Source of the DNA: Pseudogymnoascus verrucosus
Taxonomy: Eukaryota
Strand: one strand, 5' to 3'
Assembly: GCA_001662655.1 (NCBI GenBank)
Contig: KV460252.1
DNA: 64,000 nucleotides
Numbering within the stretch: the stretch's first letter is position 1; the number at the start of each line of letters is the position of its first letter. Both the position numbers and the translations under genes were made by a program. Shown here one piece after another: positions 4,179 through 31,400 of the stretch. The notes under the pieces are model-generated. The model was not told where the DNA came from. It made no database searches and saw only the letters and a list, made by a program, of their open reading frames with translations.

Positions 4179-6603
4179 TCATTCGCTACAATATTTTCTT
4201 TTGTTTTGTTTAGAGGGCGTTGCGGGGAGTTTGGGGGTGTTTTGGGGGGGGCCTTGTATAGATGTTGAATTGGTGCGTGTTTGGGTTGAATTTATATTTT
4301 ATATCATATCATATTATATCAATTTATTTATTTATTGCAGTTGAAATGAAAAAATATGTGATCTGATCAAGTCCTGCCACTACATAGAGATTATATTATT
4401 TTATACCATATCTATTTATTCACCGAACTTGAAAGTAAAAAGATATTATGGAGCTCTACAACTGCATATAGAATATATTTTATATTTCTACTACACAACA
4501 CTCATTCATGGCATGCTGAGTCTCAATAATCCTGATTCGACCCACTAAGTCAAGAATCAGACTCATAAGTCGACGAGTTTTCAAGCTCAGCCCTGTCTCA
4601 CCTTCCCTCTGCCCCCTACTCGCCCAGTTTCCCACACCTCTCCCAACTCGGCTGGGGTTTTGAGGATCGGTTGGCTAGACGGTTCTTTACGATGAAAATT
4701 ATTGTTATACTTGCGCTGCTACTCGCTGGGTTTAAATATGTGTAAGACGAATATATACACCCACTGTCTCTAATACCGGGGCATGTTACGTTTTTAATGC
4801 CCTTCCAACGTTATGTTATTCGTCTGTACACTGCGAGTTTCTGAAAGATTACGATGGTATAGCTAAACCGAAATACGTGTAACGCGCGCGTATATCACGT
4901 TATGTGTCTGTAGCCAGGACATTGCAGGGTTTTTGGGCGATGCAAGTGTAACTGTCTTACTTTTCGGCTCTGGGATAGGGGATCTTGGTTTTATGATAGA
5001 ATGTGGCGCTGCGTTAAGTTTAGTTATTGCTGCACACCCCCTGGTATGACTGGCTGGCTTTCTTTCTGCTCTGGGATATGAGAATTTCTTCGTCTTATGA
5101 GAGAAAATGGCGCCGAGTTAGGTTTTAATTTTGCTGCCCGTTGAGGGATCAGAGAGGCTGCTACTATATAGTACTCATACCCCCTCTATGCCCTTTCCAA
5201 AGCAGCCTCCTAACTACTACTTTAGCTATCACTGATCTAGCCTACAGGGCACACTCCGAGTCAAAATTCTCCTTTCCCAGCTCCTCCCACTTGCTCTTGC
5301 CACCTCAGCGGTGGCTCAAACCGCACAGGTAACGTCGATATAAACACATTTAGGGGGGACGCATCACTAATTCCCAACCTTTGTCAAGATCACATTCTAC
5401 TCAGCCTTCAAATATCAGGGCAAATCAGTCAACTACACTACATCAGCCTCTGATCAGCAAAACCACTGCCAAGACATCTACCTTTCCCTGTACGCCCCTT
5501 CCTACCCCTCTACACCCAACACGCAACTAAACACACATACAGCGACGGCCGCCCTGCCTATTCCGCTCGTCTCAGCACCGGCTGCGTGTGCCGCATGTTC
5601 CCGTGAGTCCCTCCCCTGGAAACTTAGTATGGTAATGAGGTGCTGACGCCGGCAAAGTGAGAGTGGGTGTCGGGGACACGTGGTGGTCGCCAACAAAAAC
5701 GTTCCTTATATACTGCGTGAGAAAGGGGCTACTTCGGTTACATGCACGTTCCCGGATGCATAGTTCAAGAGTAGGGTGGTACGCCTGGGCTATGAGGGAG
5801 AGGTTTGCTTTTCTTGTCTTACTCTTCTGGCCCTGGGTGGAATGTCTGAATATGGGGGGATATATGTTGGGTGGAATTCTCACACTCTGTTGGCAGCTGG
5901 TTTATTGTATTGGCCCAGATTGTATTGGGGACTGTAGGCAATATAGTACACTATATTCTATATTGCGAGCTGTTAAGTTAAGTAAGGATGAGTTAATCGC
6001 TTTACTTAGTCACGAAGAGAGCTTTCATGGAACTATTTTTAGAGGGGTTGGCTGAGAGATTGATTCGACAGGTTTGGTAGGCAGTTTTTCTTTCCTGATT
6101 TGGGCGCAGGAGGTGTATTTCTGGCCAAGTCTACCATTCTCTTCTCATCATAAATGGTACATTGGACCCATCAGTATGCCTGCGCTATCACCGAGTTGTG
6201 ATCTCACCACTCCACCCCATAGTCACACTGACTTCCTTGCCCCTATACAGACCGCTGCTGACTGGCAATGGGGACACCCCTGCAAACTCTCCTTAAAAAT
6301 CCTACAATCACGCTATGATTGAAACCAAATGGGTATCTATGAGGGCTACATCCCGAATCTCAGCCCCCTTGTCTCGAAACAAGCAAATAGAAGAGTGATG
6401 GAATAGTGGTTAGCTCCTAGTGGCAACATATCCCCTCCTACCTCATTAAGAGGACCCAAAAACAAAACCAGTGCTTCCTCTATCACTGAGTTGTCTGTGC
6501 CCGATCCCGAGTTCCAGGCATTCCTTTTTTATTGCCTTTTCGTTTGAATCCAAGCACTACCGCCTGACTGCTTTGGGGTTGAGCAAAAAATAGGCGCCAT
6601 TTA

Positions 6604-11595: not shown

Positions 11596-13569
11596 TTATC
11601 TCTTCGGGAGCCACAACCACGCTAAGAGATTAAGCCCTGGCGCTTTTATTTCAGTAATCGAAGTTGTCGTTGGGTATCGAGGCTCTGCATCAACAACAAT
11701 AGAAACAAGTGCATCCTTAAACGCCTCGGTCATATCATCATAAAGCTTATTTGTCCCTTCTGGGGACATGTCAGTCCAAGTCCAAATCTTACCATCCTTC
11801 AATGGAAACAGAATTCCCCTCAATATCCTTGCCAGCCCCTTCAAACACTCAAATTCCGGCGAAAACTCCTCCAAGACAGCCTCAAATCCCTTTTCGCCCA
11901 TATCCGCGGTCTTGCGCACCTGCTGTCGCTTGTCCTGCCTCCACTGCAACAGCCGGCTTGTCTCGGGCAGTTCCTCGGTTTTGGTGCCGTCTTCCTCGCG
12001 TGGGCATATGGCGATGAAAAGGAAAACGTAGAAGAAGGACTCGAGGTCGTGGCGGTAAGTACGCGGGTTATTCTGAACGTATGCTTCAAGAGCGCCGATA
12101 GCCATGAAAGGCGAAGTTCCTACCATAGAACCTTGAGGTGTTGGACCGCGAGAGATATCCCAGGCCGTGTCAAGATCAATAAGCATGCCCTTTGGCGACT
12201 CTGCCGAAGTTGTGGGAGGAGCAATTATTATGTTTGATGCTGCAATGTCCCTGTGGAGTATGCCGCCATCTTGATACAGAGATCGATGGGCCTTGATGGC
12301 ATCGCGGAAGACCTCTAAAAGCTGATGAAGATTGGCGTAATCGAAGATTGAAGTACCAGGGGGCGAAATAATCAAGCAGCTGAATACAGTACTGCGGTAC
12401 CCAGGGCTCTTGGGGAGGTTGGGTCTGTTTTCCTCAAACGTTTCAAGCAGAGCCTTCGCACCGACGGCCCCCGCACTAGTCTCGTTTGATTCTGCAGTCT
12501 GTTCTACAGCTTCTGTATCCTTAAACTGTTGTGGTGGGCCAAAGATTAGGTCTCTTCGCAGGTCCTCAGTTTTATCAATAACTTTGTAGCTATGGAATTG
12601 AACAACCCCCCAGACATTCCTGTCCCGGACCCTTTTTAGTTGTTCTGCCTCTGGTTCGTGCCATGGCGGCTTCCACTTATACTTAACCACAAAATTCCAT
12701 GGCGCATCAGGAGATTCCCTGCCTCTGTGGCACAAAAGGCTGCCCCTGGCAATGACCTCTTCGTCTCTGATGAAAAATGGTGGGGTCTGGAGGTACATCT
12801 TTCCTGGTACTTTTGTTTTCTCATCCTCTACACAAACGTAGGTGCCTTCACTGTCCTCCTTGATAAAGTTGCTCCGTCCCCATTCCTGGTCGCTCATCGA
12901 AGCGTAAGCATCCATGATTGTAAGGAAGCGTTCTGGATGCTCTGTTGTGTTAAACGGCTCGCAGCTGTAGGCTCCAGATCTATCAAACATCCAGCATTCC
13001 ATGGTATTCCCAAAGAGATAAAATCCATGGACGAAAGAACGATCTGGTCGTTTGCTAAACACTGCACGAGCATGACCAAAAAGTTCAAAAAGGCCATCTT
13101 TGTAATCTGAAGCTCCTCCGGGGCGGAATACTCCAACGACTTCAGCTCGTGGTTCTGACTCCGTTATGGCGCTGAACAAGGCAATGCCACCACTCGGACG
13201 TAATGGCGACTTGCTAGGCGGTGTCTGAACTGGACAATATATCACACCCCTTTCATTCAGTTTCAACACTTCGTGTAGCAATAGACACAAATCGATTGGC
13301 GATTCTATCTTTGAAGAGCTTGTCTTGAAATCATCAAGGTCCACAGACGAGACGACCTTTTGAGTGGCTGGAGACCATGATTTGCCGTCGAAGAATTTCT
13401 CAAGGAAGCCTGCAACAGCGGCATGGATACAGCCGTCAATGTCGTCGAGGATATATTCATAATCGTATGCGGAGCTATCGGTAGCAGCTGACGGAGATAT
13501 AAGAGTACCCCGGTCACGAACCAGCAACTTGCCGTTGTCACGAGATAATTTTGATGAAGCACTTCCCAT
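11596..13569 (-). CDS. Fungal-type protein kinase (FunK1 / Pkinase_fungal family)
   Basis: RSFVHGF...WMFDRSG, FVVKYKW, ILHRDIAASNII, GMLIDLD, GTSPFMAIGAL and TYRHDLESFFYVFL are FunK1-type motifs. N-terminus MGSASSK resembles an N-myristoylation signal. Confidence 0.88.
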   Translation of the reverse strand: MGSASSKLSRDNGKLLVRDRGTLISPSAATDSSAYDYEYILDDIDGCIHAAVAGFLEKFFDGKSWSPATQKVVSSVDLDDFKTSSSKIESPIDLCLLLHEVLKLNERGVIYCPVQTPPSKSPLRPSGGIALFSAITESEPRAEVVGVFRPGGASDYKDGLFELFGHARAVFSKRPDRSFVHGFYLFGNTMECWMFDRSGAYSCEPFNTTEHPERFLTIMDAYASMSDQEWGRSNFIKEDSEGTYVCVEDEKTKVPGKMYLQTPPFFIRDEEVIARGSLLCHRGRESPDAPWNFVVKYKWKPPWHEPEAEQLKRVRDRNVWGVVQFHSYKVIDKTEDLRRDLIFGPPQQFKDTEAVEQTAESNETSAGAVGAKALLETFEENRPNLPKSPGYRSTVFSCLIISPPGTSIFDYANLHQLLEVFRDAIKAHRSLYQDGGILHRDIAASNIIIAPPTTSAESPKGMLIDLDTAWDISRGPTPQGSMVGTSPFMAIGALEAYVQNNPRTYRHDLESFFYVFLFIAICPREEDGTKTEELPETSRLLQWRQDKRQQVRKTADMGEKGFEAVLEEFSPEFECLKGLARILRGILFPLKDGKIWTWTDMSPEGTNKLYDDMTEAFKDALVSIVVDAEPRYPTTTSITEIKAPGLNLLAWLWLPKR

Positions 13570-14660
13570 TGCTATAGGGGCGCTAGGGTGTATCGACGTT
13601 GATGACCGACGTTGGAGATAGTGGGCCTGTACGACCTATCAAAACTCTAAAAGCGATGCTGGCTCCGCTTTCTCTCCCCCGCGTCTCTAGTTGTTTAAGA
13701 GCCTCAAAATGGAAGAGCCTCATGGGGGGGGGGGATAGCGCTAGAATATGATTGCCTGGGATCTCTCATTCGTGGGCGAGGGCGAGGGCGAGGGCGAGGG
13801 GGAGTATAGAGGCCCAAGACTGCAGTAATCCCGGTCGGTCCGATCCGTGTTATGAGCCTTGCCGAAGGGGGAAGGGACTATCCTGTGATGCTATCCGGTG
13901 ATAGCTGTGATGCTGTGATGCGCTGTACCAGATGCTCTCACTAGTCCTAGTGAGAGCCGTCCCAGAGATGTGGGAGAGCAAGCATTTTACAGTCTTTTGC
14001 TACCCATGACAAGGCTGAGATGTAACCCTATCCTGTTTCCATTTTTGGGGGACGTGCCGTCGACGAATCGGTGGCTGATTGGTGTATCCGAACCGGTGAG
14101 AGATTGGGCAACCGGTGAAGCAGGATGGATCCCTGTTGTCAGACACAGCCTCGTCGCACCAATGGATTAAAGCCTATGCATGTTGTCTAGTACATAATAT
14201 TCTGTTTGCTGTTTAATAACCCTAACAGTTTCAGCTTTTTTTATTGGACGCCCTTTTTTATTTCCTTAACTCCGCCTTTAACATGGCCACAAGTGGTTCA
14301 CCCCGCTTTAGCCTCGTCTTCGCCCGCTCACATATATCACATTCGTGATTGTTGTAGACCGGTCTTCCTTTGGACCGGCTACCCTGGCCTAATCACATGG
14401 AGAGCTGCAGCCTCATGGAGCGTGGCTGCATATGGGTTATATACTTATGAAGCCTTGCTTATATCTTGCCTTACTTATATATTGCCCGTATGCATGCGCT
14501 GGCAGTGTAACATACATATATCAGAAGATGTAATGAGGCTCAGCAAGGCACTAATAGTTATGAGAGCACTAATTAGTCGCAGTCGCAGCCGCAGCCGCGC
14601 ACATATTCTGTAGAATACGAACCTCGCAAAGTCTCATCTTTCCTCTGGCCCACTCCGGCG

Positions 14661-15506
14661 ATGGCGCTGATTCAGGAGGGCTTCGTTTCAGCAGATACAT
14701 ACAACTCTCTCCCTACCATACAAGAAGTTGCCGATGTCCCACAGGAATATGCAGCCGATCTAGAACATCTCCAAGAGCTGCTCGCTAGACATAATGTTCC
14801 AGAATCCATCAGCATCCGCCTCATTCACAGACACTATGACATTGCCGACGGCGACGCCATGGTCTTCAGAGATATCGCACTACCAGCACATGGCACAGTC
14901 GAAGTCATGCGAGCTACACCAATAGCTTCTGCTCAGCTTCATGGAAAGAATTTCTTTGTTAGCTCTACAGCCCAGCTTCAGGCATACGAGTACACAACTG
15001 AGACAACTGTGGGCCTCTCCGAATATGAGACATTTATTGCAGAGTTTGTCGAAATTGTGGTTCAGCGGAAGTTGCAGCACAAATTTGGCCTCAAAATCAA
15101 TCACCGCAGTGAAATGGAGGTCAAGGCGGACCAGAAGGAGTTCGAATTTCCAGAGGAACAATGCACAATCACGATTCCCATCACCTTACCTCTACCAGAA
15201 GCTACTCATGAGATTGATGTTGACACGGATTGGGGCGCCGTCGACATCCAGCATAAGCGCAAGCGGGGAAAGACCAAGCCGAGGCCAAGGCCAAGCAGTA
15301 CTCGAACAACCTGCAGTCATGGTGGTCCTGCTGCCCCGGAAGATTGTCGAGGAGAATGTGCGAAGGAGGGTCATGGTGGTCCTGCTGCCCCGGAAGATTG
15401 TCGAGGGGAATGTGCGAAGGAGGGCGGAATATTGTTTGATGGAAGGATTGTTCAGCTGGGTACACCTTTCCATGGGCTGCTTAACAACCTCATGGAAGTA
15501 TGGTGA
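14661..15506 (+). CDS. Hypothetical protein with a duplicated Cys/His 18-aa repeat
   Basis: 281-aa ATG-initiated ORF of globular composition; basic patch KRKRGKTKPRPRP; HGGPAAPEDCRGECAKEG twice. Confidence 0.7.
   Translation: MALIQEGFVSADTYNSLPTIQEVADVPQEYAADLEHLQELLARHNVPESISIRLIHRHYDIADGDAMVFRDIALPAHGTVEVMRATPIASAQLHGKNFFVSSTAQLQAYEYTTETTVGLSEYETFIAEFVEIVVQRKLQHKFGLKINHRSEMEVKADQKEFEFPEEQCTITIPITLPLPEATHEIDVDTDWGAVDIQHKRKRGKTKPRPRPSSTRTTCSHGGPAAPEDCRGECAKEGHGGPAAPEDCRGECAKEGGILFDGRIVQLGTPFHGLLNNLMEVW
15316..15423 (+). repeat. 54-bp tandem duplication inside the 281-aa ORF
   Basis: GTCATGGTGGTCCTGCTGCCCCGGAAGATTGTCGAGG(A/G)GAATGTGCGAAGGAGG x2 with one synonymous mismatch. Confidence 0.95.
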
Positions 15507-15743
15507 TGTTCATATTGTATTTGACTGTTATTATAGCGTATGATTAGTTTGTTACGGAAACATAGGGTTGTTAGTTAGCCCATATGCTTCAAGAGGCGCA
15601 CATGATGAGGATATATCCAGTTTCTACCAAGACCAAATTGAAATTGCATGTGCAGGAAAGTAAGACACCTTGTAAAAGACAAGGCACCCACGGGTTCTCG
15701 AGTACGATCTAACATACAGTATTCGCCTAAATCCCCTCCACAA

Positions 15744-16790
15744 TTAAGATTTCTGACTTTCGATCTCCAGCATTCCGATCTTCAATCCTGCCTCATGAGA
15801 GCTCTTAAATTGAGACCAGGCGGCATTCATGGCAGATGATGTACCCATAGCAGCCACCATTCTCTCATGAATCATTTCCACTGGACTCTTCCCGCCATAC
15901 TGGTTTCCAATACAAATCAGAGTCTGATCCCTTGCTTCAATGACCCCAAACAAATTATTCGACAAAAGCAAATGTTCCTCTCCGCTAATGGCATAGTCTG
16001 GTGCCACGAAATGACCTTGGTGTAACGCGGCCTGGTTATTGAGTACGATTCGTTCGAATGTACTACCTGTCGCACGAGTCGCATATCCCTTCATGGAAAA
16101 TGCTGTAACTGCCCGTGATACTTTGTCGACTGCAATACTAGCGATGATTTGCATTTCTTCCTTTTCAACACCAAGGTTCTCGAGTGATGATTGGTAGACC
16201 GTCATCTGAGTTTCGGGGTCCTTCGGCTTGAAATCGGTATTGAGACGATCGAGCAACATTGTAACCTCGGCCAGTGTCTTTTCAAGGCCTTCCTTATCAA
16301 TCATTGACCACGATACACGTCTGCGGACCATATTGGAGCTCTCATATGTGCTCGTGCGAGTTGCTCTTCTAGACAGCTTTTGAAACAGCTTCCGGTGCCT
16401 GCTCTCATTCTCCTCCTCTTTTGCCAAACTGCTTCCAACTTTTTCAAATGCTAGAGGTTCGTCGCTAAAGTGATAGTCATTCAGAGTTTCGTTTGCATCG
16501 TCCATGAGCTTTTGGATGTGAGTCAACGTTTGAGCTGCGAGCTTCGCATTCTTCTCCGTGGGGCGCTCGATGAGAAACTTGTTTGAAGGCGCCCCGGAGC
16601 GGTCCATTAGGCCCACGGCTTCTGCCCAACTTCTTGTCGAGTTGTCAAGCAACGTAGCCTGGAGCATTAAAGTTGTTAGGTCCTTGGGGAAGTTGCGCGC
16701 CCTGGTGAAGTCCTTGTAACATTGAAGGAGGTTCTGAAGCACGGAAGCCACTCCGGCGATTCCAAGGATAGTCGCAGCAAGTTCTGCCAT
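15744..16790 (-). CDS. HET-S-like protein: HeLo (prion-inhibition) domain plus two-repeat HET-s-related amyloid domain
   Basis: N-terminus MAELAATILGIAGVASVLQNLLQCYKDFTRARNFPKD is colinear with HET-S as recalled (G10, G13-V14-A15, N20, C24, R32, F34, D37); also W-AEAV and the HeLo-type RVSWSMIDK...L. The C-terminal region has R1 STFERIVLNNQAALHQGHFVA, a 15-aa loop and R2 NLFGVIEARDQTLICIGNQYG-GK (HET-s R2 ends LIGNEYGGK). Confidence 0.88.
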   Translation of the reverse strand: MAELAATILGIAGVASVLQNLLQCYKDFTRARNFPKDLTTLMLQATLLDNSTRSWAEAVGLMDRSGAPSNKFLIERPTEKNAKLAAQTLTHIQKLMDDANETLNDYHFSDEPLAFEKVGSSLAKEEENESRHRKLFQKLSRRATRTSTYESSNMVRRRVSWSMIDKEGLEKTLAEVTMLLDRLNTDFKPKDPETQMTVYQSSLENLGVEKEEMQIIASIAVDKVSRAVTAFSMKGYATRATGSTFERIVLNNQAALHQGHFVAPDYAISGEEHLLLSNNLFGVIEARDQTLICIGNQYGGKSPVEMIHERMVAAMGTSSAMNAAWSQFKSSHEAGLKIGMLEIESQKS

Positions 16791-17520
16791 GATGGTATCT
16801 AGGATTTGCGAGGCTGTGAGCTATTTATATAAAACATATAAGACCCTCAAAGACAACCTATAGAGTGATAAATTGGAGACAAGCAATAAAAGTTCTTTTC
16901 ACAAGAGGCACCAGGTTTGATGAGCAGCAGGAGCAGACCTGAGGCTGATGATAAAGAAAAGGAGGACGGCTAAAGTTAACCCCCCATCTGCCTATTCCTA
17001 CCCAACGGTAAATGAACTGAGCCGCTTCATAAATGAGGCGGCCTGTTTAATAACTGTCTTGGTTTACAGTTGGGCAGGAACATATACCTTCGTAGTTGCG
17101 AGGGCCTTGAAGTCGCCTTGGACCAAGGCTTGGAGAGCCTCGGATAACTGATGCGCTGGAATTCTGCATTAACCATAACGTATCAGAATGAAACATTTTC
17201 TCTATGGTCGCAATCTACAAACTAGTTGGCTGACTGAGGAATTTTTTATAATTGATGGACCTCATTGAAAGAGCAGCGCTTATTTTTATTTTAGTGTGCT
17301 TGCATGGGTGGATGACGGTGTGGGTGCCTCTCATGCAGACATATGTGTTCGGTGAGCGACTAATGTGATGCCTTGCATCCTGCATGCCCTCTTCCCATGA
17401 CTTCCCGCCTCCCTCATTTCCACGAGAGCCTTGCGACCGTACGTATTTACTCTGTACATATCTTCCATTAGATGGACTGCTATCATCGGTGGACTGCATT
17501 GCAAAGTATCTGAAATCAAA

Positions 17521-20101
17521 ATGTCGCAGATTCACGGCCATAAGAGTAATTCATACGATAGCATTAAGCTCGATGGCACCAGCCGGCTTAGTATCGGTGA
17601 TACCTTCAATAATACTGTGTGTACGTAAACCGTGTACTAAGGCTCGCATTTGCTGCCATATTATCTAACATATTCAAGTCCAACAACCCGTGGCGCCGTT
17701 GCCAGTCCCCAAGCAGCATTTCAACGTTCTCCTTCCAAGGGCCCAGCATTTTGTAGGGCGAGATGGAGAATTGGCACAACTTACCAAGGCTCTTGAGTCC
17801 GGAAAAAAGGCGGTCGTAGCAGGACTTGGGGGCGTAGGGTATGTTACGTCTTATAATAATATGAGCAGAGTTCCTAACTACCCGAATAGAAAATCACAGA
17901 TTGCATTAGAATACTGCTATCAGTACCGAAAGAAATACCCGATTAGTTACGTATGGTGGATTGATGCAGTTAACACGGCCAGAATCGTTCAGGCGTATTC
18001 TGACATTGCAGAAACTCTCCATCTACCCGTCTCAAGCAAAGAAAATCTGATGAGAGATGTCCGCATTTGGTTCTCGCAACCTGAGAATGGCCAGTGGCTA
18101 TTTGTTTTTGACAATGTAAACGACCCGGAGGCGGTTCTCCAGCGTCCAATCGACGGACAGACAGGATCAATGCTCGACTATATGCCACACAACCATCTAG
18201 GGGGTCAGATTATAATTACCTCCATAACAAAGGAGGCGGCATATATCGTCAATGCGGAGCTTATTGAGGTCGATATCCTCCCTAGTTCAGAAGCTCGCCT
18301 GCTGATTAGGTCATATCTGCCACAGCCCCCTGACAATTCAACATCCGAGGATCTTGATATGCTGGCAGATACACTTAGCTGCATTCCTCTTGCACTAACA
18401 CAGGCTTCGAAGTATCTTAGACAGATGGGAAAAACTGTCAAGGAATACCTCTCGATGCTTAAAAACGGTGCTCAAAAGTCTTCGCTATTATCAAGGCATC
18501 TAGGCTCGCATCATCAGTATCATGAGAATCAGCATACAATCTTCACGGTCTTGAATGTTTCATATACAACACTCAAACACAAACATAAGTTGGGGTTCGA
18601 GATGCTGAACATTGCCTGTTGGCTTCATCGCGTCAACATCCCAGAAAGAATCCTCCGCCAACATTGTCAAGGCGACAAGGAGATGAGCGAAGTTGAATTT
18701 GACGAGGCAATATTGCCATTAATGCAATATTCTTTCTTGGAGAAGCAAAGCCGAGATTCAGGTTCAGACGAGGCTGTGTACTGTATGCACAGCTTAATAC
18801 AAGCTGTAGTGCAGATTTTTCAGTCTGAAGAGGGCCTGGAAGACGCCTCAAAATCAAACGCTCTGATGCTTATTGAACAGGAGACTATTCCACTAATGTA
18901 CAAACACAACTGGCACGCCCTAGAGTCTTGGCTGCCACATATCCACTCTGTCATTCAGTGCAGCAATGGCTCTACACTTATACAACATCAATCACGTTCG
19001 CCCCTCCATCTTCTTCTTGGTACATACAGTTTCAGCGTGCTATCTCGTGAGGATGAAGCTATGGAATACCTAGAAGCTAGTCTACCTGACTTGCAGCGAC
19101 CAGTAGATATATCTAACGGCGCCGTCTTTCTTGCATCCTGCTATGAGGAGAAAGTCAATGGAAAACCTAAGGCTATAGAACTACTCAGGTTGACCCTGGA
19201 ACGCCCAGATATCTGCTCAGCTCCTATGAGCTTAGCAATTAGATTAGAGGCCCGATTCAGGTGCAAGATTGCAGCCCTACTATGCGAATTATCGCCTCCT
19301 CAACCCAAAGAAGCGCAAGACGAAGTTTCTAAAGCCGCGGAGCTACTAGGGAGATTTGAAATTGTGGGTCATTCTTATGAGCAACTCATCCCGTACATGA
19401 TCACGCGGTGCCGTGGTAAAATTGCTCTTGTGCACGCTGCGACTAGCAACTCTAAAGAAGCCGACGAACTCCTTCGCGAATCAGAAATTGAGGTACTAGA
19501 GTACTGGAAGCGGCTCAAAGATATTAAGACACCATCTAATGTTGATAACAATCGAAAAGTTGGCCTATTGTCCCTGCTTGGGCAGGTCTATATGGCACAG
19601 GCAGCACGTGGACAACCTCAAGTCAAAGAACAGAAATTGAAAGACGCTGAGCTGTCGTTTAGGACATGCTACAACTTTTGCAGGCATGATAGCGGTGATC
19701 TCAGTACATGGGCTCTAAGGGCTTTATATGAGCTGGCTGAATGTTTGCGGGAGCAGAAACGATACTACGACATGGAGGTGTTACTGAAGGTTCTAACGTC
19801 TAACTCGGGCATAGCGGAGCAGGGGAAGACGAGTGCAAAGTTCCTCAAGTCTGTAGATCTTTTGAGTTGGGTGCTAATGGAGCAGGGAAAGTGGCAAGAG
19901 GCATTGGATGTCTGTGAAAATTTCTACCCGGCCATGGAAAAGGTTTGTGGCGAAGGTCATCGTAACACTGTTGATGTTAGAAAGCGGCAGGTCGTACTAA
20001 GGGTGGCTATTGATCGGCAGCGGGAGAAGATGAATTGGGATAAGCCGAATTGGGATACGATGAACTGGAATAAGATGAAATGGTTCTCCTCCTGGATGTA
20101 A
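17521..20101 (+). CDS. NLR-like protein: N-terminal amyloid motif (R0), NB-ARC, TPR-like helical domain; exons 17521-17620, 17679-17838, 17890-20101
   Basis: Exon 1 encodes MSQIHGHKSNSYDSIKLDGTSRLSIGDTFNNTV. Intron GTACGT...CTAAC...AAG (17621-17678) splices in frame. Removing a 51-nt intron GTATGT...CTAAC...TAG (17839-17889) restores Walker A GLGGVGKS. Also FVGRDGEL, Walker B WLFVFDNV, CIPLAL (GLPLA-like), MHSLIQ (MHD-like) and TPR-like LAECLREQKRY, LMEQGKWQEA, GEGHRNT. Confidence 0.9.
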
Positions 20102-20697
20102 TGCGTTATGGGAGTCGAAGCAGACTTCGCAAAACTTTCAGCTATGTCTGCTTCGATATAACGATATAATGATATAACGACGGAGTTTTGGAGTTATAGT
20201 TAGTGAGCAACTATTTTATTCCTAATTTTGAAATTCTCATAATTCGATTGGATTGCCGCCCTCTCTACCCCACAAGAGAGGGACGGAGCGGTTTCATCGT
20301 GTTTGTGGGGTAAGGATCCACCAATATGATAACCTTGGCGTACGTCACGCCACATTCTGGTGGTGCCAGGTACGAAACCCACGAACAACCAACAACGACC
20401 AACAAGGAAAGGAAAACAAATATAACTTCGACTTTTAACCTTGGCTGTGTGAATATATATATTTATTGCTTGGATAAATATCACTAAAGGTTTTGGATAC
20501 CACGGCCGCGAAAGAGAACACCTGTGGAGAATAACCGTCGAACGACTCCAGTAGGGATTATCAGAAACCAACAACCCCACATCCACCATCGTCCCCTCAA
20601 CCAACTATCACGAAAGTATCACGAAACAACCTCACACCTTTCACATCACCATCTACATCCTCAAACCCTAAAAAACAACACAGCTACAACAGCAACA

Positions 20698-24984: not shown

Positions 24985-27679
24985 TCACATCCCCCCACCG
25001 CCGCCGTTAGCCTGCCCGCCATTAACACCCGCCTGTGCCACATTCCGTGCTGCCGCCTGCACACCCTGCTGTTGCGCCAACTGCGCCCGCTGCCGCTCCA
25101 TCATGCTCGACTGCTCCGCCGGCGTCATCACAGTGTGATACCCCGTCGGCCCGAGCGGAGCTGCCTGAGGCTGCGGCGTCGATGGCGCACCACCATTGGG
25201 GTAGTACGACGCTGGGAACGGCCGCGGTGCCGTTGCGGGGAGGTGCGAAGTGTATCCCTGCTGCGGCTTCTGCGGAGAAGCTTGTCGCGCGGGCGTCGCG
25301 TATGGGTACGCTGCTAGGCCGTTCGCAGGGGGTTGCGCGCGCTGAGCGGCGTACGCTGCATTGGCTGGGGGTTGGTAGCGTTGCTGTGGTGCTGTTTGGG
25401 GTGGTTGGGCGTACTTCTGCGCGTTAGGAGTTTGGTAGTAAGCTTGTGGGCCGGAGGGGTATTGTTGGGGAGGGCCGGGGCGAGGGACCTGGTGGGGGTA
25501 GGTCGGTGTGCCGTAGGCTTGTTGTGGCCGGTATTTTGTGCCTGAGATGGTGCGGGGAGGGGTGTAGGGGATGGGACCGACGGTTGAGGGAGGGCGGACC
25601 ATGTTGGTTGAGGGAGCGCGGTTGGGGGTTTGGGATTGGTTGTAGTATTGCGCCGGTGGTGCGGAGGGACGTGCTGAAGCCGCCGCGTACTGGTTTCCGT
25701 ATAGGGAGGAAGAGCGGTGGTGCGAGGTCGACGGTGTGTGTCTAGAGGTTGTAGCAGCTGTCATCGCGGCGACCTTGGCACGAGCTGCGTATTCGTCCTC
25801 TTCCAGCACCCCCTTGAAAGTATCTGTTAACACAGGGACCTTTGTGCTGATGCTGAGATCAGACAATTGATCCGAATTCAATTTCGCAACAGCATAAGGC
25901 GGTAACGTCGCGATCATTAAAGTTAATTGGGACTTGAGAATGCTGTAGGTGGCAGCTTCTGCTTCGCTTGGTTTGGCCGGGCTTGGTATGTCGGCGCCAG
26001 GCATGACGCCAGCACGGGGGACGGCGCTCAGAGAAAGATTGCGGTTTCTCTGGTACGAATTCAGCGTCTCGAGAAGATCAGAAATACCGTCCAGCACCTC
26101 TGCAACGTCCTTATCCTCAATCGACTGGTCGTTTGCGTCTGAGGTGGAGTCTTCGAGGCTTGGATCGATAACCTCTTCCCAGTTATCAACGGCATCCTTG
26201 AACTTCTCATCTTCGTCGTCAACAGAGTCAACAGCCATATTATCCGACGTAGATTGCTGGGCATCCAGTCCAACTAATGCCATGGTCTCCATGTTGTTGG
26301 CGAGCCGTTGGAAGGTCTTCTCGCCGACCCGTTGCCACCAGATTTTGCTAACCACCCCTTGTGGGACAACAGCTGCCGCATCATCCTTTGTTGGAGCAAA
26401 TGACGAATATGCACTTCGGAAGAGCGCGTCTAATTTCGCAGCTTCTTGTTCAGCAGTCTCCGCTTCTGATGTGGAGGCCTTGACCCCGTTAAGGCTCATG
26501 GCTCTCTCTCGTTGTTTTCGCTTCGGGTCTGGAAGGTTTGAGCTGCCGGTATATTCAAGCCAGTGGCCGGATGATATTGGTTGACTATAATAACTCTGGT
26601 TGTTGCGCGCGCGTTCGATGTCCGATACCGATGGTTGCGACCAACCGATCGCGAGGCCCTTGTTTGAAGAAGCCCTTATCGGTTTGGGCGGCAGGAAAGG
26701 CAATGTGGATGTAGACGTAGAGAACAAGTCGCCCAGTGTCTGTAATTGCTTCTTGTCGTCCACGGCCCCAGATGTATCTATCGGGACGATCTGTGTAGTG
26801 TTGATCCCATTTGGCAGACCTACCTCCCGCAGCGGCTGTGGTACTCTGATGGTTCCATTCGGCACCTTAGCCGTCTCTTGGAGAGACGAAAACAGCTGCT
26901 TCGCGCCGGGAGCATTGCCGTACAAAGTCAAAACGAGCTTATGCTCGCCGGGCGTCATCGATATTTGCGTCGAGGCTTTCGGGGACGTTCCGTTTGTAGG
27001 GTAGTTCGAGATATTTGGGCTCTGTTCCCGCTCCTCTTTTGCCGACTTTAACTCGTCTTGTGTCTTCTGACGATGCGCGAGGTCTTCGGCCGTCTTTGTA
27101 AAGAGATTGATGTTCGTGACGAGCTGTGATTCCCGGATAGACAAGGGTGTGTTGTGGGTTCTGGTTGACCCGTTGGGCAATTGAAGCTCGTCGGTCAAAG
27201 ATTTGGAAGCGGCTTTGGCGTCGGAGATGACATCGTTGAGGCTCGAATACGCGTGAGCAGCTGCGCGCGCGATGATGGTGTTGGCATTGTCGGTCTTCGA
27301 TCGCTTTGCCTGTGGCTCTTTCGACTCTTCACGATTGGATAGCGGGCGTTCGAGGATGGAGGGGGTTGTATCGAATCTGTCAAGGCTCAGTTAGAAATCG
27401 GGTGGAAGACAATATTCCGTGGTGGCGGGATCTGCATATCAGGTAAGTGGTGCGCGCGTACCTTTTGAGGATGGTGATGAAGTCGTCGATCTGTTCGTGC
27501 GAATTCGTCTTGGGAGCTCCATTGGTTTTTGGCTCAGTCGTGCCGTTCACATGGATGGACGACTCTTCATTGCTATTAACGCGCTTCCGTTTTGCTGATG
27601 TTGAAAGAGGGGATTGTGACCGATCGTCTTGCGGCTGAGGGCTCAATAGGCCATTCGGCGACATGGCGACGTCTGTCAT
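24985..27679 (-). CDS. Probable nuclear protein with Pro/Gln/Tyr-rich C-terminus (possibly Rsc58/BRD7-like; uncertain)
   Basis: ATG at 27679 (MTDVAMSP...AKRKR). Intron GTACGC...CTAAC...CAG (about 27461-27377) splices in frame into the 737-aa ORF. The motifs WLEY and YSSFAPTKDD loosely recall Rsc58/BRD7-type segments (inference only). Confidence 0.8.
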
Positions 27680-28488
27680 CGTGCTGGAAGATATGGTAAT
27701 CCGCGATCTGTTGGGCGAAAGGCGCGTTTCGCGAATCGCGATGCGATCGCAAAAGTGTAGCGTGTGGTGTAGTAAGTAGTACGGGTCAGGTCGTTTAAAG
27801 TCCCGGGGCAACTCGATCTCTCTGTTTGTCTCTGTAGAGAACAGGACTAAAGAGCCACAGGAAGGTTATCCCACGAGAATTATAGCCACCATGAAAGCAG
27901 TAGATGTCGGGAACCCAAAGAGACTTTCAAAATAACCTCAATAATTAGAAAATATGATGTTGAACGTGATGAAGTCAGGGATGGGGAGACATTTCCAGTA
28001 CCGTTAAATCGTTAAACCGATAATATTCCCTGGTCACGTATGAGGAGCCGCAAAAGGCACGGGTCGCTTATGTAAGCAACGCGGCGGCGCGATTGGGAAA
28101 AGGTACGAGGGAGGAAAGGCTGTATAACAAATAATTTATAGGGAAAGGACCACCGACAAACATCAACAATTCTACACAGGAGAAGACGAAGAATACATAT
28201 ACTATAGCAGCTACGACTTTGGGCTTTGCTCTTTCTGCCTCTACATCCATTGACAGCCAGTCTACGCTGTGGAAGAGCACCTGCTCCCGTCTCTTCATCA
28301 AGGTAAGGCCCATTCCCCAATCCCCCAATCCTGTGTTTGCCTTTCCATGTCTTCACAATGCGAATCCAGTCTTACTCATTATACAGTATCCTATTATACA
28401 CCCTACTTGCTTCAATTTCACACCTCCCACCGCTCTACCTGGCCACGAAAGTCGATTTTAACTGGATCGGGCTTTCCAAAATGAACGG

Positions 28489-31400
28489 ATGCAATCGCGT
28501 GTAGTTTACGGCAATGTCTACGGCAATTGTAGCAATGTACGACGCCGACAGGTTGCAAGCGCCTTGACATTCAGCGAACTTCGTCCAACATGCATTTCAG
28601 CGAGGCGTGCTATCCCCCGGGGAGGTGACCAAGCCATTCGATGGGCGTCGCTTTCCTCGGCCGCTGCGGTGAAGGCGGCGCATCAGTCAGAAGCATACGA
28701 GCAACCTCCGGAAGAAGACAGGCTATTGCACCCAATTACGAGGCCATCTTTGGATTATAGACACTCGACATCTGGCGCACAATCTGTCTCTCCGCCCCAA
28801 CAATCAACCACGGGAGTAGCCTCCGAATTCCGCGTAAGGGGAAATAAAGCCCCAATCTCAAGGGCGGCCATTGTAGCCTCCAAATTCCGCACAAATAGAC
28901 CGCCGAACTCAGTGGCTAGTGGGGAGAGAGACAGAACCCCAATGTCAAGGGCGACTGTAGCCTCCAACCTACGCGCAAAGAAGAACAGACCAGCGAACTC
29001 GACGGACTACAAACCGAATTCGCTTGACATCAAAAAGGACAACAGTGGCCTAGAACATGTTTCCGCCCAACGTGCATCTTTGCTACATTCTTCAAAGAAA
29101 CCAGATCGCCAGGTCAACATCAGGCCTCGCAGCAACAGGCAACTCAAAAGTCAACGCCCCTCTCCCAGCCAAATAATAACTGCCTGGCAATCTGGGACTA
29201 TAAATTTCCTATCTAGCGGAGATGTCGAGGGATGGTCAAAGTCGGACGCATTAACAAGCATATTCGTGCAATATATGAAGTATATGGAGTCGCCACATTT
29301 ACCACAATTTTCTCAGGCCAACCCTGATCAACTGGAAAGACTGTTAAGACCATCTGAGCCCTTTTTTACTGAGGATATCACGGCCAGCCTTCAAAAACAC
29401 GGCTGCACACCTCAGGATGTACGAGGATGGGCCTGGATTGTTCTAGCACCCAATGCCCACGTTGCTGCTGAACGATACCTTTCGGCAGATACCACTTTTC
29501 CTCCGGTTGCAATCCTCACCAACATCCTGCGCATGAAGAAGATGCATATCAAAACTCTGCGACAATTGGTTTTTAGAGTTTCTACTATGCTAACCAAAGT
29601 CTCCACCTCTCCGACCAGCAAGAATCGTGGTATACTGGAGGACAACTCGTTTCAGACAGTGGTCTGTGGCCTTCTGAGGCATGCTCGGGAAATCGATCCG
29701 CTTTCGTTCACCGGCATTGCCCGCTTGGTTAGCCAGTACTGTGGTATTGTTACATGCATTTCCGACGAGGCTCGTGGTTTTGGTGGGAAGGAGTACACCA
29801 GGCTGACCAACATCTGTCGAACTGTCATCTGCCGGCTCTCAATACCCGCGGCCAAGTCTCCTTACGCGTCAATGGGGTATGCCTGGGAAGCGCAGCAGGT
29901 CATCCTCGAGGCAGGGAACTCGCTCCAGCCGGCACTAGAACTGGATGCCAGAAGCTACCAGGCTATAGCTTGTGTGCTACTTGCCGACAAGAAGACCGAG
30001 GCGGAGACTGAAGCGGTTGCACATCTTCATCGGTCGTGGCCGCCTTGGAAGAAGGTCTTGGATGGAATGGATGCGCGCCGTCAGCCAGAGGACGATGCAT
30101 CGCGAGCAACCCGCGTTCTTGAGAATATGAAATCAGCTGGGTATCCCCCGACATCGTTCGAGAATGCGATAAGCATTCTCGCAGGACGGGATACAGACGG
30201 CACTCCGGCGATTCCTACGCGGACAATTATGCATCTTGTGCGGCAAAAGTTATCCAAGGATATCAGACACAACAAACCCCTCCAGCCCGCTCACAAACGC
30301 CCATCAAACGTTGCTAGCAAACAACCCTCCAAACCCATCCAGAACAGCGCCTCCGAACCCGCCCTCACAAACCCCCTCAAATCCGCCGGCGAAAGAACCC
30401 CTGCATCCAACGGCAACAACTCCGCCGGCAAAAGCCCCGCCGAATGGGCTGCTCGCATCCGCGCCACCCGCGACGTCCAAGAAGCCTGGGCAGCCTTCCG
30501 AGCCTACCAGGGCCTCCCCTCACAAGCAATGTTCCACGAGATGTTCCTCAAGCTTATCTACGACAAGGTGAACCGCTTGCGCCCGCGCATGCACCACCCC
30601 GCCCCTGGCGACGGGTTTGAGGTCTTCCCAGTCGAGAACGACAACCTGAGCGATTTCGAGATTGAGCGCAAGGCCCCGCCGGACGTCAGGGGACTATACG
30701 AGCTCATGAGGGCGGCGCAGCTAACTGCAACTGACCGAACGCTCCGCCACCTCCTCGCGCAAGCCGATTCGATCAGCTGGGCGCTCCGACTCCTCCTCGA
30801 CTCCGGCCTACCCAGCGACGCCGTGAGTGCGCTCGTTCGCGGCAACGACCGAAAATCACGGCACTCATTCCCCAGCGAAACATCGCCCGCCTCGCCCAAT
30901 TCCCTCAATCAGAAGGAAACCGCCCTCGCCCGCGTCCCCCATGGCATCTTCACAGCTCACATCAAGCTCCTCGCCCGCCTCTCCCTCTCCACCCCCCATC
31001 CCAGACAAACCCCTCCAATAACACACCTCCACACCGCTCTCACGCTTCTCAAATCTCACCCTTCTCCTCCCAACTCAGCATGGCACGCCTTCCTCCGCGC
31101 GGCAGCCGCGCCGAAGACCCTCGCACAGCCGAACAACACATCCCCCGACACCGCGCTCCTACGCACATACAACCACAGGTCAGCGCCGTACTGGAACTCC
31201 GTCGTCCGGGAGACGGTCGCGCATCTGAGGGAGGGTGAGGGGGACGTAAACCCAGATATCTTTCAATACGCTGCGTATGCGCTGTATTCAACCATCTTCG
31301 CTGCGCGTCGCCGCGACGTTGCCGGCGCGCACGAGGAGGCGGAGAAGAGTCTCCCTGCCCTCCATGAACTCTGGGATGCGATAACGGAACCATCGGAGGA

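What the first reader, a model, noticed from the sequence alone, without database searches (positions are those of the whole stretch)
15744..20101. Head-to-head amyloid-signalling pair: HeLo effector with two HET-s-type repeats and an NB-ARC/TPR NLR with a matching R0 motif
Seen: three 21-aa repeats align without gaps. NLR R0 is NSYDSIKLDGTSRLSIGDTFN (17548-17610). Effector R1 is STFERIVLNNQAALHQGHFVA (aa 243-263) and R2 is NLFGVIEARDQTLICIGNQYG (aa 279-299), separated by a 15-aa loop. All three have an aromatic at position 3, Ile at 6 and Gly at 17. The start codons are 730 bp apart on opposite strands. Established: in Podospora anserina, the NLR NWD2 templates the HET-S beta-solenoid through an N-terminal R0, which releases the pore-forming HeLo domain; HET-s R1 and R2 are also 21-aa repeats with a 15-aa loop. 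Inference: this is a programmed-cell-death module with divergent motifs (R1 has Ser and His where HET-s has its Asn ladders) on an NB-ARC-TPR sensor rather than NACHT-WD, possibly a distinct HRAM variant. The ORF track hides it because it starts the NLR at 17690.
Basis: partly seen in the sequence, partly recalled or inferred. Interest (0 to 1): 0.88.

Follow-up and report, generated by a model that had tools for sequence, protein, structure and literature searches.

The report
HET-S-like amyloid cell-death gene pair
Two neighbouring fungal genes encode a pore-forming cell-death protein and a sensor that share a short amyloid-forming motif, a well-known kind of fungal immune switch of which this is a new, previously uncatalogued example.

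Summary
At 15744-16790 (-) lies a 348-aa HeLo protein (Pfam HeLo 85.6 bits) with two 21-aa repeats 36 residues apart. 730 bp away on the other strand lies a three-exon, 823-aa NLR whose exon 1 carries a matching motif, R0 (17548-17610). My spliced model is identical to a deposited Pseudogymnoascus sp. VKM F-103 protein.

In this genome alone the three repeats share 4 of 21 residues, which is no better than shuffles. The relation shows up at family level:
- Profile-profile P is 2.5e-6 to 3.5e-5, and 0 of 200 column shuffles reach the observed score.
- A profile built only from distant effectors' repeats ranks the R0 exon first of 1793 six-frame ORFs (E 1.1e-5).
- The effector profile aligns without gaps to HET-s(218-289) (E 8e-4).
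- An AlphaFold model gives a two-rung solenoid resembling 2RNM.
- The two genes are adjacent in at least 3 other Pseudogymnoascus genomes.

I read this as a HET-S/NWD2-type amyloid-signalling pair: a new member of a known kind, not a new kind. NB-ARC/TPR sensors with such motifs exist elsewhere. Three things are mildly new: a conserved 45-50-aa tail after R2, mixed HRAM1/HRAM3 features, and absence from two published catalogues. Splicing, fibril formation, seeding and killing remain untested.

The parts
15744..16790 (-). Effector gene: 348-aa HeLo protein with a C-terminal double HET-s-related amyloid motif (stop codon included)
   Evidence: A single uninterrupted ORF. 13 homologues at 58-99% identity cover 99-100% of its length, and 2 more cover 92-95%.
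16155..16769 (-). HeLo pore-forming domain (aa 8-212), preceded by a hydrophobic N-terminal helix
   Evidence: Pfam PF14479 scores 85.6 bits, E 5.4e-24. PDB sequence hits to 2wvn/2wvo/2wvq have E 1e-8, or 6e-16 with the family profile. Foldseek to 2wvo/2wvq/2wvn gives probability 1.00 and TM(target) 0.59-0.68.
16002..16064 (-). R1, the first 21-aa repeat (aa 243-263)
   Evidence: Located. In the model the strands are 242-250, 255-258 and 261-262, with block pLDDT 85-92. It scores 11.3-11.7 bits on HRAM3-type profiles and about 0 on HRAM1-type profiles.
15957..16001 (-). 15-aa loop between the repeats (aa 264-278)
   Evidence: Located. The spacing is the same as in HET-s, and the alignment to 2kj3/2mus is gapless.
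15894..15956 (-). R2, the second 21-aa repeat (aa 279-299), followed by GGK
   Evidence: Located. It scores 19.2 bits on the HRAM1-type r2 profile. Pfam PF11558 matches here at a sub-threshold 13.3 bits.
15747..15890 (-). 48-aa Met-rich C-terminal tail after R2 (aa 301-348); function unknown
   Evidence: The tail is 45-50 aa long in 11 of 13 genus orthologues. The model predicts a helix at 303-329. Among 101 repeat-bearing representatives the median tail is 6 aa, and only 3 have a tail of 40 aa or more.
16791..17520 (.). 730-bp intergenic region between the divergent start codons (presumed shared promoter; not analysed)
   Evidence: Coordinates.
17521..17620 (+). NLR exon 1 (33 codons plus 1 base)
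   Evidence: It begins with the first ATG of its ORF. If left unspliced, it stops after 35 codons. The deposited protein P0019 contains it.
17548..17610 (+). R0, a single HET-s-related motif (NLR aa 10-30)
   Evidence: It is the top hit of 1793 six-frame ORFs with an independent HRAM1-type profile (E 1.1e-5, 22.1 bits). hhalign to R1 and R2 gives P 2.5e-6 and 3.5e-5. It is conserved in 8 of 9 orthologue models read.
17621..17678 (+). Intron 1 (58 nt; GTACGT donor, CTAAC branch site, AG acceptor)
   Evidence: No RNA evidence is available.
17679..17838 (+). NLR exon 2 (linker and the first part of the P-loop)
   Evidence: It contains no in-frame Met, so exon 1 is needed to supply a start codon upstream of the P-loop.
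17839..17889 (+). Intron 2 (51 nt; GTATGT, CTAAC, AG), in frame and without a stop, inside the Walker A motif
   Evidence: Removing it restores GLGGVGKS.
17890..20101 (+). NLR exon 3: the rest of the NB-ARC-like NOD and a degenerate TPR-like C-terminal region (stop codon included)
   Evidence: Sub-threshold Pfam matches: AAA_16 24.7 bits, DUF7779 17.1 bits, TPR_12 24.6 bits. 12 of 14 family members match PF00931. The family profile hits the NB-ARC of ZAR1 (E 4.4e-9) and NRC1 (E 5.9e-7).

Best explanation
This is a two-gene amyloid-signalling cell-death module of the HET-S/NWD2 type, in a Pseudogymnoascus species.

Inferred mechanism, by analogy with Podospora anserina:
1. The NLR binds an unknown ligand through its TPR-like C-terminal region and oligomerises through its NB-ARC-like ATPase domain.
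2. Oligomerisation brings several copies of the N-terminal R0 motif together. They stack into a beta-solenoid-like amyloid nucleus.
3. This nucleus templates R1 and R2 of the neighbouring HeLo protein into a two-rung solenoid.
4. That refolding releases the hydrophobic N-terminal helix of the HeLo domain, which inserts into the membrane and kills the cell.

Shown here: the domain architectures, the three related motifs, the HET-s-like repeat spacing, the predicted fold, the gene model, and conserved adjacency.

Inferred: splicing in vivo, ligand sensing, amyloid formation, cross-seeding and toxicity.
For: Effector:
- Pfam HeLo scores 85.6 bits.
- Sequence and fold matches to the HET-s/HET-S HeLo structures.
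- A 17-sequence family profile aligns positions 245-302 without gaps to HET-s(218-289) chains 2mus and 2kj3, with E 8.3e-4 and 1.6e-3.
- An AlphaFold2 model built on 111 sequences has mean pLDDT 81.8. It has the same three strands in each repeat, with block pLDDT 85-94. Foldseek matches it to 2rnm/2lbu/2mus with probability 0.99-1.00, TM(target) 0.55-0.61 and rmsd 3.5-3.9 A.

R0:
- hhalign of the R0 alignment (8 sequences) against R1 gives P 2.5e-6 and against R2 gives P 3.5e-5. R1 against R2 gives P 6.7e-6. 0 of 200 column-shuffled R0 alignments reach the observed score of 23.3 (mean 9.3, maximum 19.6).
- I built a profile only from the repeats of 20 distant N3-type HeLo proteins, leaving out this subfamily and all NLRs. 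It puts the exon-1 ORF first of 1793 six-frame ORFs, at E 1.1e-5 and in register.

Motif rules of Daskalov 2015 (PMC4518210, Results section), checked:
- G19 is present in 34 of 34 repeats.
- Position 8 is Ile in 33 of 34.
- Position 5 is aromatic.
- Position 16 is hydrophobic.
- Charges are complementary between R1 and R2 at position 6 (E in 11 of 13 against K in 11 of 13) and at position 12 (K/R in 8 of 13 against D in 11 of 13).

Gene model:
- The spliced product is identical to deposited protein P0019.
- Exon 2 has no Met.
- The Walker A motif GLGGVGKS is intact only after intron 2 is removed.

Linkage:
- Consecutive locus tags on the same contig in 3 other genomes: V493_02841/02842, VE03_01401/01402 and VE02_04293/04292.
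- A 39%-identical effector on metagenome contig L001 sits beside a NACHT-ankyrin NLR that has its own R0-bearing first exon.

Mechanistic precedent: the NWD2 N-terminal motif forms prion amyloids and activates HET-S (PMC4344463, abstract).
Against: - Within this genome the three repeats are no more alike than chance: 4 of 21 identities per pair, and shuffles often reach the same score.
- An HMM of the family's own R1 and R2 sees R0 only at E 1.7.
- Pfam HET-s_218-289 is far below its threshold for both proteins, at 13.3 and 11.9 bits against 32.2.
- The window's NLR gets no Pfam NB-ARC hit at E<=10, and its TPR matches are sub-threshold. The sensor is therefore divergent and could be decaying.
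- R1 is atypical. Its core position 18 is Gln in this strain and varies among orthologues (Q6 L4 R2 V1). Its position 3 is Ser rather than Asn or His. It scores about 0 bits on HRAM1-type profiles.
- R0 resembles generic HRAM1 repeats (25.8 bits) more than it resembles its own partner's repeats. This leaves room for a non-adjacent partner.
- AlphaFold has seen HET-s in training, so the solenoid model is not independent evidence.
- There are no RNA, fibril, seeding or toxicity data.
Confidence: 0.82

Rival explanations
1. The pair descends from a true amyloid-signalling module but no longer works as one in this lineage. The sensor is degenerate, R1 has drifted, and the effector is either inert or acts alone, for example as a prion-like allorecognition factor in the way het-s does.
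For: - The window's NLR misses Pfam NB-ARC altogether, and its TPR matches are below threshold.
- R1 has polar or variable residues at core position 18 and scores about 0 bits on HRAM1-type profiles.
- In strain 03VT05 both deposited models are truncated: the effector P0016 (256 aa) lacks the repeats, and the NLR P0029 (547 aa) has a disrupted P-loop.
Against: - Both ORFs are intact here.
- Walker A is intact, and the Walker B-like FVFDNV region is conserved.
- R0, R1, R2 and the tail are conserved across orthologues at 58-85% identity, with invariant G19.
- Charge complementarity between R1 and R2 is maintained.
- 12 of 14 family members do match NB-ARC.
Confidence: 0.1
2. The R0 resemblance is real but the neighbouring genes are not cognate partners. 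R0 signals to another HRAM effector elsewhere in the genome, or the effector is templated by another NLR.
For: - R0 scores higher on generic HRAM1-type profiles (25.8 bits) than R1 or R2 do, and higher than it scores against its neighbour's own repeat HMM (5.1 bits).
- The genus carries other HRAM effectors, with 6 HRAM3 entries in the supplement of PMC4518210.
- Signalling between non-adjacent genes is discussed in PMC9815663 (passages).
Against: - Head-to-head adjacency is conserved in at least 3 other genomes.
- The profile-profile match of R0 to both R1 and R2 is in register.
- In the published set, r0 fell in the same group as its neighbour's r1 and r2 in 82 of 90 cases (PMC4518210, Table 2).
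Confidence: 0.05
3. Exon 1 is not part of the NLR transcript. The R0-like peptide is a chance short upstream ORF, and the NLR has no amyloid motif.
For: No RNA evidence could be obtained. The gene models in all strains are computational predictions.
Against: - Without exon 1 there is no in-frame ATG upstream of the P-loop. The first one lies inside intron 2 and would delete Walker A.
- The donor, branch and acceptor signals are canonical.
- The 21-aa peptide is conserved without frame breaks in 8 orthologues.
- It is the best HRAM match among 1793 ORFs.
Confidence: 0.03

Closest known systems
HET-S / NWD2 of Podospora anserina (the founding HRAM1 pair)
   Same: - A HeLo effector with two 21-aa repeats and a 15-aa loop.
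- An adjacent NLR with a single N-terminal repeat.
- A gapless profile alignment to HET-s(218-289).
- R2 ends in IGNQYGGK, against IGNEYGGK in HET-s.
- The predicted solenoid superposes on 2rnm.
   Different: - The sensor is NB-ARC-like with TPR-like repeats, not NACHT-WD.
- Position 5 is aromatic.
- R1 has Ser at position 3 and a variable position 18.
- A 48-aa tail replaces the 7-9-aa C-terminal loop.
- Pfam PF11558 is not reached.
HRAM3 HeLo proteins of Pseudogymnoascus (6 entries, KFX/KFY/KFZ accessions, in supplement 2 of PMC4518210)
   Same: Same genus, HeLo plus a double repeat, an aromatic residue at position 5, Ile at position 8, and GD/GN after G19.
   Different: This is a different paralogue family. 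Those proteins have His at position 3, an 11-aa loop, a 2-residue gap in r1 and a short YGGKDFWD end. None of the window family's signature strings occurs in that table (0 hits).
The nearest effector subfamily: Stachybotrys elegans P0018, metagenome loci L001 and L002, and representatives P0053-P0067
   Same: 31-38% identity over the full length, an R1 that starts TG-x-x-F/Y, an R2 that ends FGGKS/YGGK, and tails of 20-26 aa in most members, rather than about 6 aa.
   Different: - Several members have His at position 3 (P0056, P0059, P0063).
- The L001 copy is paired tail-to-tail with a NACHT-ankyrin NLR rather than head-to-head with an NB-ARC/TPR one.
TPR-type NLRs with an HRAM R0: Penicillium roqueforti CDM29510.1 (motif NLR13 at residues 7-28; C-terminal annotation TPR) and Aphanocladium album P0041
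   Same: A single HRAM at the extreme N-terminus of a TPR-type NLR.
   Different: Both are only remote relatives of the window's NLR; P0041 is 25% identical over 35% of the query. Their partner effectors were not examined here.

Membership tests
HET-s-related amyloid motif (HRAM) effector, as defined in Daskalov et al. 2015 | N-terminal HeLo (or HeLo-like/SesA) domain | tested here: met
   PF14479 scores 85.6 bits against a cut-off of 23.2. The HET-s/HET-S HeLo structures are the only Foldseek hits with E<=0.001.
HET-s-related amyloid motif (HRAM) effector, as defined in Daskalov et al. 2015 | Two 21-aa pseudo-repeats joined by a 6-18-aa loop, C-terminal to the HeLo domain | tested here: met
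   R1 is aa 243-263 and R2 is aa 279-299, with a 15-aa loop. The R1/R2 profile comparison gives P 6.7e-6. The alignment to HET-s(218-289) is gapless, with E 8e-4 to 1.6e-3.
HET-s-related amyloid motif (HRAM) effector, as defined in Daskalov et al. 2015 | Invariant Gly at position 19 and hydrophobic residues at positions 5, 8, 10, 16 and 18 | tested here: met
   G19 is present in 34 of 34 repeats, and position 8 is Ile in 33 of 34. Positions 5 and 16 are hydrophobic throughout. Two exceptions: R2 position 10 is Gly or Ala (it is Gly in HET-s r2), and R1 position 18 is Q6 L4 R2 V1.
HET-s-related amyloid motif (HRAM) effector, as defined in Daskalov et al. 2015 | Repeat region compatible with a two-rung beta-solenoid | tested here: met
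   The AlphaFold2 model shows three strands per repeat at block pLDDT 85-94. Foldseek to 2rnm/2lbu/2mus gives probability 0.99-1.00 and TM(target) 0.55-0.61. This is a prediction only, and the method was trained with HET-s in the PDB.
HET-s-related amyloid motif (HRAM) effector, as defined in Daskalov et al. 2015 | Forms self-propagating amyloid; conversion activates HeLo toxicity | not testable with these tools
   This needs fibril, seeding and cell-death assays.
Pfam HET-s_218-289 (PF11558) | Score at or above the gathering threshold of 32.2 bits | tested here: not met
   The effector's C-terminal region scores 13.3 bits (R2 only) and NLR aa 9-36 scores 11.9 bits. Only 38 of 155 published HRAM proteins meet this model (PMC4518210, Results section).
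NLR partner of an amyloid-signalling pair (NWD2-like) | A single HRAM copy at the N-terminus in place of an effector domain | tested here: met
   R0 lies at aa 10-30. With an independent HRAM1-type profile it ranks first of 1793 ORFs, at E 1.1e-5. The same position is hit in 8 orthologues.
NLR partner of an amyloid-signalling pair (NWD2-like) | Gene adjacent to the effector gene, with linkage conserved in relatives | tested here: met
   The two start codons are 730 bp apart, head to head. Three other genomes have consecutive locus tags on the same contig.
NLR partner of an amyloid-signalling pair (NWD2-like) | Exon carrying R0 is spliced to the NOD exons in the mRNA | not testable with these tools
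   No RNA run was listed. The indirect support is canonical splice signals, the absence of any alternative ATG, and identity to the deposited model.
NB-ARC / TPR STAND NTPase | Walker A P-loop and an NB-ARC domain match | tested here: inconclusive
   Walker A GLGGVGKS is present. The window's protein has no PF00931 hit at E<=10; it gets AAA_16 at 24.7 bits (cut-off 32.6) and DUF7779 at 17.1 bits. However, 12 of 14 family members match PF00931. The family profile hits the NB-ARC of ZAR1 (4.4e-9), AfsR (5e-9) and NRC1 (5.9e-7). An orthologue is labelled NB-ARC in the S1 table of PMC9815663.
NB-ARC / TPR STAND NTPase | C-terminal tetratricopeptide repeats | tested here: inconclusive
   TPR_12 scores 24.6 bits (cut-off 30.1) and TPR_10 scores 20.3 bits (cut-off 27.5). 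The strong kinesin-light-chain TPR hits of profile A2 come mainly from its distant members.
HRAM1 subfamily | Asn at motif position 3 (with a 15-aa loop being usual) | tested here: inconclusive
   Asn is present in R0 (7 of 8) and in R2 (13 of 13), but R1 has Ser in 10 and Asn in 3 of 13. R0 scores 25.8 bits and R2 19.2 bits on N3-type profiles, while R1 scores about 0. Formal clustering with the published motifs was not done.
HRAM3 subfamily | His at motif position 3 | tested here: not met
   No His occurs at position 3 in any of the 34 repeats. The aromatic at position 5 and the best score of R1 (11.3-11.7 bits) are nevertheless HRAM3-like.

The most novel reading that the evidence does not exclude
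The conserved 45-50-aa Met-rich extension after R2 (predicted helix 303-329) may be a new regulatory element of an HRAM prion domain. It could be a cap that holds the solenoid-forming repeats in check or gates HeLo release. Together with the hybrid R1 (HRAM3-like) and R2/R0 (HRAM1-like) make-up, this would define a distinct HRAM subfamily with a second level of control. Both published catalogues missed this subfamily.
Probability: 0.12. Interest if true: 0.55.

Novelty: new member of a known kind. Interest (0 to 1): 0.3.

Why it matters
Fungal NLR-to-HeLo amyloid templating is an established paradigm, related to necroptosis signalling in animals. One more pair does not change the picture.

Its modest value lies elsewhere:
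- It is a cleanly delimited, apparently intact pair in Pseudogymnoascus, a Leotiomycete genus.
- It shows how catalogue filters lose real cases. A 2015 survey kept only proteins of at most 310 aa and looked only at their last 80 residues. A 2022 census marked an orthologue 'noasm' (no amyloid signalling motif found).
- It offers a natural test of cross-seeding rules, because R1 and R2 lean towards different HRAM subfamilies.
- It also offers a test of what a long C-terminal extension does to a solenoid prion domain.

Tried and rejected
- RNA evidence for the junctions: no RNA holder was listed for 15700-20150.
- Whole-genome search for other HeLo/HRAM genes: no genome is held for this window.
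- Earlier notes of this scan: none.
- Complex prediction on effector aa 226-310 with NLR aa 1-45: the queue was full three times and then the tool was declared unavailable. It never ran and gave no verdict.
- First AlphaFold run on the 17-sequence alignment: mean pLDDT 45.2, too poor to use. I replaced it with the 111-sequence run.
- Pairwise BLOSUM scoring with shuffles, and an HMM of the family's own R1 and R2, did not detect R0 significantly. I kept these as negative results.
- Tail: an HMM of the tail found no second copy in the window or in L001/L002; the best non-self hit had E 1.6.
- Metagenome scan: 80 stretches matched a pattern, but only 2 encoded a relative (39% and 32% identity). 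No close orthologue DNA was obtained, so intron conservation at DNA level could not be checked.
- Formal clustering with the published 310 r1/r2 and 98 r0 motifs was left out, because those sequences are not session sequences. As a substitute I built classes from the representative search, using the residue at position 3.
- The idea that an NB-ARC/TPR sensor is unusual for an HRAM was rejected.
- Two paper-reading runs failed on term syntax. They were re-sent or replaced.

Full report
**What is in the sequence**

On the minus strand, 15744-16790 is one uninterrupted ORF of 348 aa. On the plus strand, an ATG at 17521 opens a 100-nt exon. It is followed by a 58-nt intron (GTACGT...CTAAC...AG), a 160-nt exon, a 51-nt intron (GTATGT...CTAAC...AG) that sits in frame inside the P-loop, and a 2212-nt exon ending at 20101.

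Joining the three exons gives 823 aa with no internal stop. That product is identical, residue for residue, to P0019, the deposited protein V499_01691 of Pseudogymnoascus sp. VKM F-103. The window is therefore from that fungus or a near-identical isolate, and the public annotation already carries exon 1.

**Is the repeat relation more than chance?**

Taken alone in this genome, it is not. Each pair of repeats shares 4 of 21 residues. A shuffled R2 reaches its best score on the NLR in 1026 of 5000 trials. R0's best 21-mer in the effector is not a repeat at all. An HMM built from R1 and R2 of 15 effector homologues sees the R0 exon only at E 1.7.

With families, the picture changes.
- As separate blocks, R0-R1 gives P 2.5e-6, R0-R2 gives 3.5e-5 and R1-R2 gives 6.7e-6.
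- 0 of 200 column-shuffled R0 alignments reach the observed score.

The strongest test avoids circularity. From a search of 1.84 billion representatives (504 hits at E<=1e-3, 150 listed) I took the distant HeLo proteins that carry two repeats. I left out the 15 closest relatives and all NLRs, and built a profile from the 20 proteins with Asn at motif position 3. That profile ranks the exon-1 ORF first among 1793 six-frame ORFs of the window plus two metagenome loci, at E 1.1e-5 and in the right register.

**The effector**

Pfam HeLo matches at 85.6 bits over aa 8-212. The HET-s/HET-S N-terminal domain structures are hit by sequence. They are also the only four Foldseek matches with E<=0.001 to a confident AlphaFold2 model (mean pLDDT 81.8 on 111 sequences).

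The family profile aligns positions 245-302 without a gap to HET-s(218-289) chains 2mus and 2kj3 (E 8.3e-4 and 1.6e-3). The repeat spacing is therefore the HET-s spacing.

The model gives the same three strands in each repeat, at block pLDDT 85-94. It superposes on 2rnm, 2lbu and 2mus with probability 0.99-1.00 and TM(target) 0.55-0.61. AlphaFold was trained with HET-s in the PDB, so this shows compatibility rather than independent proof.

Pfam's own HET-s_218-289 model is not reached (13.3 bits against 32.2). That is usual: only 38 of 155 published HRAM proteins reach it (PMC4518210, Results section).

**Motif anatomy**

- G19 is invariant in 34 of 34 repeats.
- Position 8 is Ile in 33 of 34.
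- Position 5 is aromatic and position 16 is hydrophobic.
- R1 and R2 carry opposite charges at position 6 (E against K) and at position 12 (K/R against D), as expected for stacked rungs.

The departures are these:
- R1 has Ser, not Asn or His, at position 3.
- R1 has a variable position 18 (Q6 L4 R2 V1).

R0 and R2 score best on Asn-type (HRAM1-like) profiles, at 25.8 and 19.2 bits. R1 scores only on His-type (HRAM3-like) profiles, at 11.3-11.7 bits. The family thus sits on the HRAM1/HRAM3 border, which the 2015 paper itself calls blurred.

**The sensor**

Removing intron 2 restores Walker A, GLGGVGKS.

The window's own protein gets no Pfam NB-ARC hit at E<=10. It gets only sub-threshold matches: AAA_16, DUF7779, TPR_12 and TPR_10. 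At family level the case is better:
- 12 of 14 aligned homologues match PF00931.
- Their profile hits the NB-ARC domains of ZAR1, AfsR and NRC1.
- A 2022 census labels the 24MN13 orthologue NB-ARC.

I therefore call it NB-ARC-like with a degenerate TPR-like C-terminus.

This architecture is not unusual for an HRAM. A Penicillium roqueforti TPR NLR is listed with the HRAM motif, and an Aphanocladium NB-ARC/TPR homologue carries a canonical R0.

**Linkage**

Effector and NLR orthologues have consecutive locus tags on the same contig in three other Pseudogymnoascus genomes. R0 is conserved in 8 of 9 orthologue models that I read.

A 39%-identical effector on metagenome contig L001 lies tail-to-tail with a NACHT-ankyrin NLR. 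That NLR's own short first exon encodes an R0 followed by a canonical intron. So the effector family keeps an NLR partner even when the type of sensor changes.

**What is known, and what is new**

The mechanism is established for NWD2 and HET-S (PMC4344463, abstract; PMC3531502, search listing only). HRAM pairs are described as common in fungi (PMC4518210; PMC3321046 and PMC5485727, passages).

This particular family is absent from both published catalogues.
- The 2015 table holds none of its signature strings (0 hits). The six Pseudogymnoascus entries there are another paralogue with an 11-aa loop. The likely reason is the cut at 310 aa and the last-80-residue window.
- In the 2022 NLR table, as held here (the file was cut when stored), none of the 80 VKM F-103 rows is 823 aa long. 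The 824-aa 24MN13 orthologue is marked 'noasm'.

The one structural oddity is the tail. After R2 come 45-50 conserved, Met-rich residues (in 11 of 13 genus orthologues) with a predicted helix at 303-329. The median tail among 101 repeat-bearing representatives is 6 aa, and only 3 have a tail of 40 aa or more. Its role is unknown, and it has no second copy nearby.

**Verdict**

The pair is a new, uncatalogued member of a well-known kind. Splicing, fibril formation, seeding and killing are all inferred and remain to be tested.

Noticed in passing
L001:795-1754 (+) and L001:2047-5997 (-): This metagenome contig carries a 39%-identical HeLo/double-repeat effector lying convergent with a NACHT-ankyrin NLR. 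A short first exon of that NLR (about 5911-5985, minus strand) encodes an R0-like motif, followed by a GTGTGT...CTAAC...CAG intron. It is the second-best HRAM hit of 1793 ORFs (E 2.3e-3).
   Followed up: partly
window 15747-15890 (-): The effector has a 48-aa Met-rich tail after R2. It is conserved in the genus at 45-50 aa in 11 of 13 orthologues and is predicted to be helical at 303-329. No match was found elsewhere in the window. Tails in related HRAM proteins have a median length of 6 aa.
   Followed up: partly
proteins P0016 and P0029 (Pseudogymnoascus sp. 03VT05, locus tags VE02_04293 and VE02_04292): In this strain both deposited models look damaged. The effector has 256 aa, a foreign N-terminus and no repeats. 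The NLR has 547 aa and a disrupted P-loop region. This could be pseudogenisation of the pair or poor gene models.
   Followed up: no
window 11596-13635 (-): A 679-aa ORF matches Pfam Pkinase_fungal (297 bits). It lies about 2 kb beyond the 3' end of the effector gene.
   Followed up: no
window 14661-15506 (+), repeat near 15330-15450: A 281-aa ORF with no Pfam match contains a perfect tandem duplication of a 17-aa Cys/Glu-rich unit (GGPAAPEDCRGECAKEG, twice).
   Followed up: no
window 24985-27390 (-): An 801-aa ORF carries DUF7877 (75.7 bits) and DUF7785 (112.4 bits). The 1126-aa ORF at 28462-31842 (+) has no Pfam match.
   Followed up: no
PMC9815663, supplementary file 2: The census lists 80 NLRs for Pseudogymnoascus sp. 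VKM F-103, and every row I saw is marked 'noasm'. The window's 823-aa NLR is not among them, and its 24MN13 orthologue (OBT53277.1) is marked 'noasm'. Divergent NODs and this R0 type seem to escape that pipeline.
   Followed up: partly
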